Below, one piece after another: positions 60,515 through 60,904 of a stretch of DNA of 64,000 nt (positions within the stretch are counted from its first letter, which is position 1; every line of letters starts with the position of its first letter). The stretch is taken from positions 153,210 to 217,209 of the forward strand of contig CALXWW010000001.1 of assembly GCA_944392545.1 (NCBI GenBank), written 5' to 3'. The notes under the pieces were generated by a model. The model searched no databases. It was not told where the DNA came from and saw nothing but the letters and a program-made list of their open reading frames with translations. The position numbers and the translations under genes are program-made. Source of the DNA: an uncultured Clostridia bacterium (GTDB lineage: Bacteria; Bacillota; Clostridia; TANB77; CAG-508).

Positions 60515-60904
60515 ATGATTTGCTTGAATTGTGGAAAAGGCATTTCTAATAAAAAGAAATATTGCAATAATTTTGCCAAAAAGAATTTCAATATAAGGAA
60601 TATATATTAAAATGGAAAAAACGGAGAAGTTAATGGAATAAGAGGAGAATATCAAGTTTCTTCACATATAAAAAAATATATTTTCAATAAATATAATAAT
60701 AAATGTGTTAAATGTGGTTGGGGAGAAAAGAACATTTATACTAATACAATACCATTAGAAATAGATCATATTGATGGAAATTATAAAAATAACAAAGAAG
60801 ATAATTTAGTATTATTATGTCCAAATTGTCATGCATTAACTTCAACATATAAGGGGGCGAATTTAAACTATGGTAGAAAATCAAGGAAAAAATATACTAA
60901 ATAA
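60515..60904 (+). pseudogene. HNH endonuclease gene interrupted by one in-frame TAA (60608-60610)
   Basis: The frame reads MICLNCGKGISNKKKYCNNFAKKNFNIRNIY*NGKNGEVNGIRGEYQVSSHIKKYIFNKYNNKCVKCGWGEKNIYTNTIPLEIDHIDGNYKNNKEDNLVLLCPNCHALTSTYKG...KYTK*, a complete HNH core (DH...N...CPNCH) with zinc-ribbon Cys pairs. It is missed by the ORF track because the post-stop part has no start codon. Confidence 0.65.

What the first reader, a model, noticed from the sequence alone, without database searches (positions are those of the whole stretch)
60515..60904. HNH homing-endonuclease-like gene killed by a single TAA, immediately downstream of the intron-containing tRNA
A 129-codon frame encodes an N-terminal zinc ribbon (CLNCGK...YC) and a complete HNH core (CVKCGW...EIDHIDG...NLVLLCPNCHA). 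Codon 32 is TAA. There is no other disruption and no frame change. It starts 60 nt after the tRNA cluster terminator and overlaps the fabG start by 35 nt. A free-standing, recently inactivated HNH gene next to a group I intron suggests a former homing-endonuclease/intron mobility partnership. Stop-codon readthrough or recoding is a less likely alternative.
Basis: seen in the sequence. Interest (0 to 1): 0.6.

Follow-up and report, generated by a model that had tools for sequence, protein, structure and literature searches.

The report
Frameshifted tRNA-associated HNH homing endonuclease pseudogene
This is a real, dead copy of a small DNA-cutting "selfish" gene beside an intron-split threonine tRNA gene, killed by two one-base slips rather than one stop codon, and its intact relatives always sit beside or inside tRNA genes in gut bacteria and phages.

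Summary
An HNH endonuclease remnant lies at 60515-60904 (+).

Residues 21-35 match the family (CQKEFQYKEYILKWK) only in another frame. The true lesions are a 1-nt deletion in a T-run (60571-60574) and a 1-nt insertion in an A-run (60616-60621). The TAA is an out-of-frame by-product.

The lesions are genuine. Eleven independently assembled contigs from two sample series are 100% identical over the region, and one strain carries an intermediate allele with only the A insertion. No intact allele closer than 83% identity was found.

All 82 related genome loci keep one uninterrupted match to the protein. Two of them carry other defects: L033 has an in-frame TGA and L075 has a degraded N-terminus. 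Pairwise dN/dS in 16 comparisons among 22 intact orthologs was 0.02-0.23.

The gene nearly always lies next to tRNA-Thr(UGU) carrying a roughly 240-nt group I intron. In some MAGs the same protein is encoded inside that intron. In phages it sits in tRNA arrays, mostly beside tRNA-Thr(UGU).

The homing-endonuclease/intron partnership is therefore well supported by comparison. Recoding and sequencing error are not supported.

The parts
60515..60904 (+). HNH endonuclease pseudogene. The ancestral 129-aa ORF had an N-terminal Cys4 zinc ribbon / treble clef followed by an HNH beta-beta-alpha-Me domain.
   Evidence: Translations. Pfam HNH. The repaired protein is 72-83% identical over its full length to 129-aa homologs.
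60571..60574 (+). T-run of 4. The family-consistent frame needs 5, so this is a -1 deletion that shifts the frame after codon 20. It is the younger of the two lesions.
   Evidence: One-column gap against L002. L094, the same species at 99.7% identity, has T5 here.
60608..60610 (+). The TAA read as 'codon 32'. It lies in the out-of-frame stretch and is not a nonsense substitution.
   Evidence: In the family-consistent frame these bases belong to ATA TTA AAA (I-L-K).
60616..60621 (+). A-run of 6. The family-consistent frame needs 5, so this is a +1 insertion that returns the reading to frame 1. It is the older lesion, shared by all alleles of the species.
   Evidence: One-column insertion against L002. 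It is present in all 12 same-species contigs, including the intermediate allele L094.
60622..60901 (+). HNH catalytic core, still open in frame 1 but without a start codon of its own. Zinc cysteines are C64, C67, C102 and C105; the catalytic H85, N97 and H106 are retained. D84 and A107 replace the family-invariant E84 and S107.
   Evidence: Alignments A1 and A5. No ATG/GTG/TTG ORF is listed in this frame.
60135..60452 (+). tRNA-Thr(UGU) gene interrupted between anticodon-loop positions 36 and 37.
   Evidence: ARAGORN with the intron option. RNAalifold recovers the cloverleaf.
60171..60412 (+). ORF-less group I intron of 242 nt. The last exon base before it is U and the last intron base is G.
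   Evidence: RF00028 scores 43.4 bits, E 5.9e-10 in a 401-nt scan, below the gathering score of 50. It is precisely absent in L019, leaving the junction CTTGT|AATCAG. In 30 homologs, 30 of 78 predicted pairs of the tRNA plus intron show compensatory changes.
60457..60491 (+). Terminator-like hairpin with a U-run, between tRNA-Thr and the HNH start. It is conserved in L002.
   Evidence: Fold dG -18.3 kcal/mol, z -3.8. Alignment A2.
59877..60130 (+). Upstream part of the tRNA operon: a promoter-like site TTGACA-17-TAAAAT (59877-59905), tRNA-Lys(UUU) at 59944-60019 and tRNA-Glu(UUC) at 60056-60130.
60870..61628 (+). SDR (FabG-like) gene whose first 35 nt overlap the HNH 3' end. The overlap is conserved in close relatives.
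   Evidence: ORF list. Gene calls in L001 and L002 show the same 35-nt overlap.

Best explanation
The locus is the decayed copy of a free-standing HNH homing-endonuclease gene. Its family lives next to, or inside, tRNA genes, above all tRNA-Thr(UGU).

Shown:
- In this species the gene was first broken by a +1 A insertion in an A-run (A5 to A6), which truncated the protein after 39 residues.
- It later lost a T from a T-run (T5 to T4).
- Reading from the ATG now stops at an out-of-frame TAA after 31 codons, and the HNH core has no start codon, so no nuclease can be made.
- The lesions are real and were the only state found in the sampled population.
- Intact orthologs in related gut Clostridia occupy the same position, downstream of the tRNA-Lys/Glu/Thr operon and overlapping the SDR gene. 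They evolve under purifying selection.

Inferred:
- The enzyme cuts DNA at or near intron-less tRNA-Thr(UGU) genes.
- Repair from the endonuclease-bearing chromosome copies the nuclease gene and the intron together. This is 'collaborative' or trans homing.
- The intron splits the target and so protects its own chromosome.
- Once the cassette was fixed in this species, selection on the nuclease lapsed and it decayed, while the self-splicing intron persisted. This is the classic homing cycle.
For: Lesions:
- Translations in three frames.
- Protein alignment with 13 homologs.
- DNA alignment with L002 showing one 1-nt gap and one 1-nt insertion.

The lesions are genuine:
- Eleven contigs from the BRZ_* and ONAT22-1 sample series are 100% identical over the 393 nt.
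- L094 is 99.7% identical over 5.2 kb and carries T5/A6.
- No intact allele above 83% identity exists among 5.8 billion protein clusters.

The family is functional elsewhere:
- All 82 relatives give a single-frame match.
- dN/dS is 0.02-0.23.
- The catalytic H/N/H residues and four zinc cysteines are invariant.
- The AlphaFold model has pLDDT 83, and its nearest solved structures are HNH nucleases, including McrA, Cap5 and the Cas9 HNH domain.

Relaxed constraint on the window lineage:
- It has 26-30 amino-acid differences to outgroups, against 15-26 for its sisters L005 and L006.
- A three-taxon estimate gives omega of about 0.3 against 0.06.
- D84 and A107 sit at positions that are invariant in 38 homologs.

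Link to the tRNA and intron:
- 60 of 82 genome loci have the gene 56-237 nt downstream of tRNA-Thr(UGU), and 58 of those tRNAs carry the intron.
- Five loci have it convergent with the tRNA.
- Three have it clearly inside a 621-630-nt version of the same intron at the same site.
- In IMG/VR, 77 of the 80 best loci have a tRNA gene within 1.5 kb. The median distance to the nearest tRNA is 29 nt, and that tRNA is Thr(UGU) in 31 cases.

Mobility signatures:
- T5-like phage HdH2 has the gene abutting tRNA-Thr(UGU). T5 has 8 bp at that spot, with flanks 84-93% identical.
- L019 lacks the intron in a background 99-100% identical to L063.
- Between L063 and L020 the tRNA-intron-HNH segment is 95-100% identical, while the flanks are 65-85% identical.
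Against: - No cleavage, splicing or homing assay exists, so the target site is inferred only from position.
- L019 combines an uninterrupted tRNA-Thr(UGU) with an apparently open HNH gene. If the anticodon loop were the target, this chromosome would be self-cutting. Possible ways out are that its R121T change at an invariant residue disables the enzyme, or that the MAG is a strain mixture.
- In phages the adjacent tRNA-Thr genes are intron-less and their anticodon stems vary widely. The recognition site may therefore lie elsewhere, or co-evolve with the tRNA.
- Each gene arrangement is monophyletic in the protein tree and synteny is conserved. Adjacency within Clostridia could therefore be mostly vertical inheritance.
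- Long persistence at dN/dS of about 0.1 is unusual for a purely selfish chromosomal endonuclease. It leaves room for a domesticated role.
Confidence: 0.8

Rival explanations
1. The gene is intact except for one nonsense substitution (TAA at codon 32), with no frame change.
For: Frame 1 is open on both sides of the TAA.
Against: Frame-1 residues 21-31 (AKKNFNIRNIY) do not match the family. The frame-3 reading CQKEFQYKEYILKWK matches the consensus, including near-invariant C21, Q22, W34 and K35. The DNA alignment shows two indels. Allele L094 differs by exactly one of them.
Confidence: 0.01
2. The indels are homopolymer sequencing or assembly errors, and the gene is really intact.
For: Both lesions lie in homopolymer runs, where errors are typical, and together they restore the frame.
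Against: Eleven separately assembled short-read-style contigs (SPAdes NODE and scaffold names) from at least ten samples in two sample series carry the identical T4/A6 sequence. A twelfth contig carries T5/A6. Gene callers found no HNH gene on any of them. The window lineage also shows extra amino-acid changes at invariant sites.
Confidence: 0.03
3. The gene is expressed through programmed recoding. This would need a -1 slip on the U-run followed by a +1 or -2 event (or transcriptional slippage) on the A-run, or readthrough of the TAA.
For: A -1 slip of tRNA-Phe on A_AUU_UUG is formally possible. A-runs can promote polymerase slippage.
Against: Two separate low-efficiency events would be needed within 50 nt. 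A6 is short for slippage. None of the 82 orthologs has a shift at either site, so there is no conservation of a recoding signal. The intermediate allele L094 would need a different solution. Readthrough of the TAA would give a protein lacking the conserved C21 zinc ligand and the WK motif.
Confidence: 0.02
4. In the bacterial lineages the HNH protein is a domesticated host nuclease, for example acting in DNA repair or defence, or as an aid to tRNA or intron processing. Its position beside tRNA-Thr would then be inherited synteny rather than a mobility partnership, and its loss here would be ordinary gene loss.
For: Synteny is conserved, with a 35-nt overlap onto the SDR gene. dN/dS is 0.02-0.23 across a wide clade. 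Each arrangement is monophyletic. L019 tolerates an intron-less tRNA-Thr.
Against: The adjacency to tRNA-Thr(UGU) recurs in independent contexts. These are a convergent orientation, an intron-encoded form, phage tRNA arrays, T5-like coliphages and an Enterococcus phage. There is presence/absence polymorphism between T5 and HdH2. The cassette is more similar than its flanks between L063 and L020. The gene is dispensable in this species.
Confidence: 0.12

Closest known systems
Collaborative (trans) homing pairs in phages: T4 MobE with the defunct I-TevIII nrdB intron, and Aeromonas phage Aeh1 MobE with the nrdA intron (PMC2790892; review PMC3984707)
   Same: A free-standing HNH endonuclease gene lies beside an ORF-less (or ORF-dead) group I intron. 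In the model, the intron insertion site coincides with the nuclease target, so the two are co-inherited. The model also proposes this arrangement as the route by which endonuclease genes enter introns, and here both the free-standing and the intron-encoded states of one family are seen.
   Different: The host gene is a tRNA rather than a ribonucleotide reductase gene. The setting is a bacterial chromosome with long vertical persistence. The target site is untested. The copy in this window is dead.
Free-standing homing endonucleases in phage tRNA gene clusters: T4 SegB (GIY-YIG; PMC2330249) and T5 F-TflI/II/IV (HNH; cited in PMC2330249 and PMC5714182)
   Same: The genes are embedded between tRNA genes. 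SegB recognises a conserved tRNA-gene motif and drives inheritance of the tRNA region. The HNH core of the present family is 54% identical over 56 residues to T5 hegA (T5.075), which lies beside tRNA-Ile2. Phage members of the family lie a median of 29 nt from a tRNA gene.
   Different: SegB belongs to a different nuclease superfamily. T5 hegA is a larger protein with other DNA-binding domains. T5 itself lacks this family at its tRNA-Thr gene. The SegB paper called endonuclease genes in phage tRNA clusters 'rarely observed', whereas this family alone gave 313 IMG/VR matches, of which 77 of the best 80 lie within 1.5 kb of a tRNA gene.
Intron-encoded endonucleases of bacterial tRNA group I introns. 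[quoted passage not shown]
   Same: These are group I introns in the anticodon loop of a bacterial tRNA gene with an associated homing endonuclease. Relatives L040, L053 and L064 are exactly this type, with the ORF in the P5 loop.
   Different: In the window and in most relatives the nuclease gene is outside the intron. tRNA-Thr(UGU) at 36/37 with an HNH gene in Bacillota is not among the cases that survey names in its text.
Zinc-ribbon HNH endonucleases of phages (PHROG phrog_1271; PMC3592412)
   Same: An N-terminal CxxC...CxxxC zinc ribbon is followed by a [CxxC]2 HNH core. phrog_1271 scores E 5e-20 over residues 2-122.
   Different: Those enzymes are larger and are typically linked to cos sites and terminase genes. 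Any link to tRNA genes was not examined for them here.

Membership tests
HNH / His-Me finger endonuclease (Pfam PF01844) | Sequence match to the HNH profile above the curated cut-off | tested here: met
   PF01844 scores 25.4 bits against a cut-off of 21.4, E 1.6e-5, residues 64-106.
HNH / His-Me finger endonuclease (Pfam PF01844) | Catalytic His...Asn...His and two CxxC zinc knuckles present | tested here: met
   H85, N97, H106, C64, C67, C102 and C105 are present in the window remnant and invariant in 38 homologs.
HNH / His-Me finger endonuclease (Pfam PF01844) | Beta-beta-alpha-metal fold | tested here: met
   Tested on the ortholog P0001. The AlphaFold model has pLDDT 83 with strands 82-85 and 98-101 and helix 103-107. 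Foldseek finds only HNH nucleases, with weak E-values of about 6e-3 to 0.1.
HNH / His-Me finger endonuclease (Pfam PF01844) | Translatable, uninterrupted gene | tested here: not met
   There are two frameshifts, a stop after 31 codons, and no start codon for the core. The window copy is a pseudogene of this family.
Homing endonuclease gene (functional class) | Presence/absence polymorphism at one locus between close relatives with conserved flanks | tested here: met
   A 398-bp HNH segment in HdH2 replaces 8 bp in T5, with flanks 84-93% identical. This was shown for the family, not for the window copy.
Homing endonuclease gene (functional class) | Members encoded within self-splicing introns | tested here: met
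   L040, L053 and L064 have tRNA-Thr(UGU) introns of 621-630 nt containing the ORF. RF00028 matches L040 on the 3' side of the ORF (25.4 bits, E 3e-4). Phage locus L112 appears similar.
Homing endonuclease gene (functional class) | Site-specific cleavage of the endonuclease-less allele and biased inheritance | not testable with these tools
   There is only an indirect hint. The cassette is 95-100% identical between L063 and L020 while the flanks are 65-85% identical.
Collaborative (trans) homing pair | [quoted passage not shown] | tested here: met
   The intron at 60171-60412 has no ORF, and the HNH gene starts 62 nt after the tRNA. 58 relatives have the same layout.
Collaborative (trans) homing pair | Endonuclease target coincides with the intron insertion site, and the intron confers immunity | not testable with these tools
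   This is inferred only. L019 (intron-less tRNA plus an open HNH gene) argues for caution.
Group I intron (Rfam RF00028), for the neighbouring element | Score at or above the curated gathering threshold | tested here: not met
   The score is 43.4 bits against a threshold of 50 (E 5.9e-10 in a 401-nt scan, full model span). The element was missed entirely in a 3-kb scan.
Group I intron (Rfam RF00028), for the neighbouring element | U at -1, terminal G, precise excision boundary, and a conserved core with covariation | tested here: met
   Exon 1 ends in T60170 and the intron ends in G60412. The intron-less allele L019 has the junction CTTGT|AATCAG. In 30 homologs, 30 of 78 predicted pairs of the tRNA plus intron show compensatory changes.
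Group I intron (Rfam RF00028), for the neighbouring element | Self-splicing activity | not testable with these tools
   This needs in vitro transcription and splicing, or RNA-seq.
Programmed ribosomal frameshift / recoded gene | Shift site and frame arrangement conserved in orthologs | tested here: not met
   All 82 orthologous loci encode the protein in one frame. L002 has different bases at both sites.
T5 F-Tfl / heg HNH endonucleases | Full-length homology and the same domain architecture | tested here: not met
   Only the HNH core (residues 62-117) matches T5 hegA, at 54% identity and E 1.6e-15. The other T5 heg genes score E of 0.003 or worse. The lengths are 129 aa against 194-227 aa.

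The most novel reading that the evidence does not exclude
This small HNH family may be a dedicated 'tRNA-Thr(UGU) homing module'. Nature appears to preserve every stage of mobile-intron genesis in it. The stages seen are free-standing beside intron-less tRNA-Thr in phage tRNA arrays, free-standing beside an ORF-less intron in hundreds of gut Clostridia chromosomes, and finally lodged in the intron's P5 loop. A sister intron has also spread to tRNA-Tyr in one genome.

On this reading the chromosomal intron acts as immunity against the resident nuclease and against phage-borne homologs. Recurrent homing between strains would then keep the nuclease under purifying selection for long periods, with occasional decay such as in this window.
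Probability: 0.3. Interest if true: 0.7.

Novelty: new member of a known kind. Interest (0 to 1): 0.5.

Why it matters
The window copy itself is an ordinary pseudogene. It still corrects an annotation trap: two compensating homopolymer indels look like a clean nonsense mutation.

The comparison it prompted is more useful.
- One compact HNH family is tied to tRNA-Thr(UGU) from T5-like coliphages and an Enterococcus phage to gut Clostridia chromosomes.
- The family exists both outside and inside the same group I intron.
- Intron-plus and intron-minus alleles occur in near-identical backgrounds.

How homing endonuclease genes come to reside in introns is a long-standing question, so far supported mainly by two phage examples. 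This family offers hundreds of natural intermediates and a simple biochemical test. The tRNA intron surveys I could read (PMC13011429; bioRxiv 10.1101/2020.01.27.920355) look for endonuclease genes inside long introns. They do not discuss a free-standing partner, so they may undercount potentially mobile introns.

Tried and rejected
- The default ARAGORN run and a 3-kb Rfam scan both missed the intron-containing tRNA. The ARAGORN intron option and a 401-nt Rfam scan were needed.
- A PDB sequence search gave only marginal hits, to IcmJ/DotN and McrA. Foldseek E-values were weak, so there is no close solved homolog.
- NCBIfam gave no family-level name. The only match was a sub-threshold similarity to the IscB HNH domain.
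- Supplementary Table S5 of PMC13011429 was truncated in storage. I could not check whether tRNA-Thr(UGU) 36/37 introns in Bacillota are listed there. Table 1 of the 2020 tFind preprint is an image.
- Rfam did not confirm a group I intron in phage locus L112. It gave only a weak hit in L125 (21.6 bits). The phage 'intron-encoded' cases other than by blastn similarity are therefore provisional.
- Comparing anticodon arms to find a conserved target or immunity signature was uninformative. The arm is invariant in bacteria and highly variable in phages.
- The midpoint-rooted tree cannot say whether the free-standing or the intron-encoded state is ancestral.
- I considered and rejected three readings: a single nonsense mutation, sequencing error, and programmed recoding (see rival explanations).
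Full report
THE OBSERVATION. The stretch 60515-60904 (+) does read as the first-stage reader said in frame 1: MICLNCGKGISNKKKYCNNFAKKNFNIRNIY*NGKNGEVNG...CVKCGW...EIDHIDG...NLVLLCPNCHA...KKYTK**. The TAA is at 60608-60610. The stop at 60902-60904 lies 35 nt inside the next ORF, a 252-aa SDR/FabG-like gene that starts at 60870. Pfam HNH (PF01844) matches above its curated cut-off. Upstream lie tRNA-Lys(UUU) at 59944-60019 and tRNA-Glu(UUC) at 60056-60130. A third tRNA was missed by default settings.

THE REAL LESION. 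The frame starting at 60517 reads ...FCQKEFQYKEYILKWKK... across 60574-60621. I built a repaired protein that takes residues 1-20 from frame 1, residues 21-35 from that frame, and the rest from frame 1. It is 129 aa long and matched 1,442 database proteins. The best matches are also 129 aa, cover 100% of the query and are up to 83% identical (E 3e-70).

- In an alignment with 13 of them, the repaired stretch CQKEFQYKEYILKWKN fits the consensus CQKEFQYKxYIxKWKNGE. That consensus includes near-invariant C21, Q22, W34 and K35. The frame-1 reading AKKNFNIRNIY* does not fit.
- A DNA alignment with the intact relative L002 shows exactly one missing base at the T-run and one extra base at the A-run.
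- Direct counting in the sequence places the T-run at 60571-60574 (4 T, where the frame needs 5). It places the A-run at 60616-60621 (6 A, where the frame needs 5).

The gene was therefore killed by two compensating single-base homopolymer indels. The TAA is merely what the 47-nt out-of-frame stretch happens to spell. After the A-run there is no ATG, GTG or TTG in frame, so the HNH core cannot be translated on its own.

REAL MUTATIONS OR ERRORS? I looked up the exact SDR protein and the exact upstream DUF1858 protein of the window in public assemblies.

- Eleven contigs from at least ten samples in two sample series (BRZ_* and ONAT22-1), each assembled separately, are 100% identical to the window over all 393 nt, including T4 and A6.
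- No gene was called between DUF1858 and the SDR gene on any of them.
- A twelfth contig, L094 (ERZ15808502), is 99.7% identical over 5.2 kb and carries T5 with A6. This is an intermediate allele that would encode a 39-residue stub.

The A insertion is thus the older, shared lesion and the T deletion came later. The protein search found no intact allele closer than 83%. The broken state is therefore the only one seen in the sampled population of this species. Sequencing error is effectively excluded.

RELATIVES AND CONTEXT. A scan of species-representative genomes gave 314 relatives, and I examined the best 80 plus two loci from assemblies. All are low-GC MAGs; most are labelled uncultured Clostridia and a few Bacilli, Mollicutes or Lachnospiraceae. 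The window itself is 25.4% GC.

- All 82 loci encode the protein as a single-frame match. Two have other defects: L033 has TGA in place of the invariant W69, and L075 has a degraded N-terminus.
- In the closest relatives synteny is complete: TrwB-like gene, DUF1858, tRNA-Lys, tRNA-Glu, tRNA-Thr, HNH, SDR (with the same 35-nt overlap), CBM53, LexA-like gene, VanW.
- Pairwise dN/dS among intact orthologs is 0.02-0.23, so the gene is functional and under constraint elsewhere.
- The window lineage has 26-30 amino-acid differences to outgroups, against 15-26 for its sisters L005 and L006. A three-taxon decomposition gives omega of about 0.3 for the window branch and about 0.06 for L005.
- The window also has D84 and A107 where 38 homologs have invariant E84 and S107.

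This fits a gene that was functional for most of the branch and has drifted since inactivation. The estimate is rough, because only 129 codons are available.

THE NEIGHBOURING tRNA AND INTRON. ARAGORN with introns allowed finds tRNA-Thr(UGU) at 60135-60452 with a 242-nt insert after anticodon position 36. By direct reading, exon 1 ends at T60170 and the insert runs from G60171 to G60412.

- Rfam's group I intron model matches 60183-60389 across its full length at 43.4 bits (E 5.9e-10 in a 401-nt scan). That is below the gathering score of 50, and the element was lost to filters in a 3-kb scan.
- Locus L019 carries a precisely intron-less allele with the junction CTTGT|AATCAG. Its background is 99-100% identical to the intron-bearing L063.
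- An RNAalifold analysis of 30 homologs recovers the tRNA cloverleaf plus the intron helices. Compensatory changes occur in 30 of the 78 predicted pairs.

I therefore accept it as a group I intron at position 36/37. Self-splicing is untested.

THE HNH-tRNA ASSOCIATION.

- 60 of the 82 loci have the HNH gene 56-237 nt downstream of tRNA-Thr(UGU) on the same strand. In 58 of these the tRNA carries a 217-244-nt intron, and in two (L019, L072) it is intron-less.
- Five loci have the gene convergent with an intron-bearing tRNA-Thr.
- Most of the remaining loci are contigs that break inside the tRNA or intron.
- In L040, L053 and L064 (labelled Bacilli, Mollicutes and 'uncultured bacterium' respectively) the tRNA-Thr(UGU) intron is 621-630 nt, sits at the same site, and contains the HNH ORF.
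- The alignment places that ORF in the loop after AATTCGGGGAA, which is the P5 loop. Its C-terminus runs into the conserved CAATCCCGAGCTAGG strand. Rfam detects the 3' part of the intron core in L040.
- In L064 the next gene, tRNA-Tyr(GUA), carries an ORF-less sister intron.
- In a neighbour-joining tree each arrangement is monophyletic. This fits a few rearrangement events followed by vertical descent. It does not show which state is ancestral.

PHAGES. IMG/VR holds 313 relatives.

- Of the best 80 loci, 77 have tRNA genes within 1.5 kb. The median distance from the HNH gene to the nearest tRNA is 29 nt.
- The nearest tRNA is Thr(UGU) in 31 cases and Lys(UUU) in 11. Thr(UGU) makes up only 45 of the 390 tRNAs in these loci.
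- L072 is the same 95,989-nt contig as an IMG/VR viral genome, so that intron-less case is probably a phage.
- In GenBank phages the best match is an unannotated ORF in the tRNA array of Enterococcus phage iF6, at 55% identity and 13 nt before tRNA-Thr(UGU).
- In the T5-like phage vB_EcoS_HdH2 the annotated HNH gene abuts tRNA-Thr(UGU).
- T5 itself has 8 bp at that position between flanks that are 84-93% identical. This is a textbook endonuclease-gene presence/absence polymorphism.
- The HNH core is 54% identical to T5 hegA, another HNH gene of the T5 tRNA region.
- A few phage loci appear to carry the ORF inside tRNA introns: L112 in tRNA-Thr, L125, L126 and L135 in tRNA-Lys, and L159 in tRNA-Ile. 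Rfam support for these is weak or absent, so I treat them as provisional.

MECHANISM. Two things are shown. The window copy cannot make a nuclease, and the family is a conserved zinc-ribbon HNH nuclease whose members are positioned at or in tRNA genes and are polymorphic for presence.

The rest is inferred. I infer that it is a homing endonuclease whose target is at or near tRNA-Thr(UGU). In the Clostridia it would form a collaborative-homing pair with the ORF-less intron, as described for T4 MobE/I-TevIII and for Aeh1 (PMC2790892, PMC3984707). In that model the intron interrupts the target and is co-converted with the nuclease gene.

Hints of ongoing exchange are the intron-plus/minus alleles in near-identical backgrounds and the cassette that is 95-100% identical between L063 and L020 against flanks of 65-85%. 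After fixation in this species the nuclease would lose its selective value and decay, leaving the intron.

There are caveats. L019 has an intron-less tRNA-Thr beside an open HNH gene, though that gene carries R121T at an invariant residue. Phage tRNA-Thr anticodon stems are highly variable. Long-term purifying selection leaves room for a domesticated role.

COMPARISON WITH THE LITERATURE. Free-standing endonuclease genes in phage tRNA clusters are known: T4 SegB, which recognises a tRNA-gene motif, and T5 F-TflI/II/IV. They were described as rarely observed (PMC2330249). A 2026 survey of 4,934 complete genomes found endonuclease genes in 12 of 333 tRNA introns. The cases it names in its text do not include tRNA-Thr(UGU) in Bacillota, and it does not consider free-standing partners (PMC13011429). 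A 2020 preprint lists 17 new tRNA intron types, but its table is an image. In the library I could search I found no description of this HNH/tRNA-Thr association, and that library is incomplete.

VERDICT. The object in the window is an ordinary pseudogene of a known kind of element. The family-level pattern it exposes is worth following up.

Noticed in passing
window 60135-60452: tRNA-Thr(UGU) with a 242-nt group I intron at 36/37 is invisible to default ARAGORN and to Rfam in a 3-kb scan. It scores 43.4 bits, under the gathering score of 50, in a 401-nt scan. Standard annotation would report this tRNA as missing.
   Followed up: yes
L064:3566-3886: tRNA-Tyr(GUA), directly after the HNH-containing tRNA-Thr intron, carries a closely related ORF-less intron of 237 nt. 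This suggests the intron spread to a second tRNA with a similar anticodon loop.
   Followed up: partly
L033:3001-3405: The HNH ortholog has TGA in place of the invariant Trp69 (TGT GGA TGA GGT). It is either an independent pseudogene or an organism that reads TGA as Trp.
   Followed up: no
L075:3001-3360: The HNH ortholog lacks the N-terminal CxxC knuckle and an obvious start codon, and C21 is replaced. The tRNA-Thr intron lies 1.5 kb away. This is possibly another decaying copy.
   Followed up: no
L019:2765-3390 compared with L018 and L063: A precisely intron-less tRNA-Thr(UGU) lies in a background 99-100% identical to the intron-bearing L063. The adjacent HNH gene carries R121T at a residue invariant in the family.
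   Followed up: partly
L063 compared with L020, about 2240-3340: The tRNA cluster, intron and HNH gene are 95-100% identical, while the flanking genes are 65-85% identical. This suggests recent lateral exchange of the cassette.
   Followed up: partly
L092 compared with window 60407-64000: The HNH remnant and the SDR protein are identical to the window, but the 3.6-kb alignment overall is only 93% identical. A recombination boundary probably lies downstream of the SDR gene.
   Followed up: no
L180 (Escherichia phage vB_EcoS_HdH2) compared with L182 (T5) 4745-4754: The T5-like phage HdH2 has the HNH gene abutting tRNA-Thr(UGU). T5 has only 8 bp there, between flanks that are 84-93% identical.
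   Followed up: yes
L181 (Enterococcus phage iF6, MT909815.1 41124-41504): A 55%-identical HNH ORF in the phage's tRNA array, 13 nt before tRNA-Thr(UGU), has no annotation in the GenBank record.
   Followed up: partly
L112:2774-2848: A match to the c-di-GMP-I-GGC riboswitch model (45.2 bits, below the gathering score of 59) lies on a 232-kb IMG/VR contig, near the tRNA array.
   Followed up: no
L125, L126 and L135, about 1182-2205: ARAGORN calls tRNA-Lys(UUU) with inserts of 895-928 nt that contain the HNH ORF. Rfam gives only a weak group I intron hit (21.6 bits) after the ORF in L125.
   Followed up: partly
70 spliced bacterial tRNA-Thr(UGU) genes compared with viral loci: The anticodon arm ACTGACTTGTAATCAGT is identical in 70 of 71 genome loci. 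Phage tRNA-Thr(UGU) genes next to the HNH gene have almost as many different anticodon stems as there are loci.
   Followed up: partly
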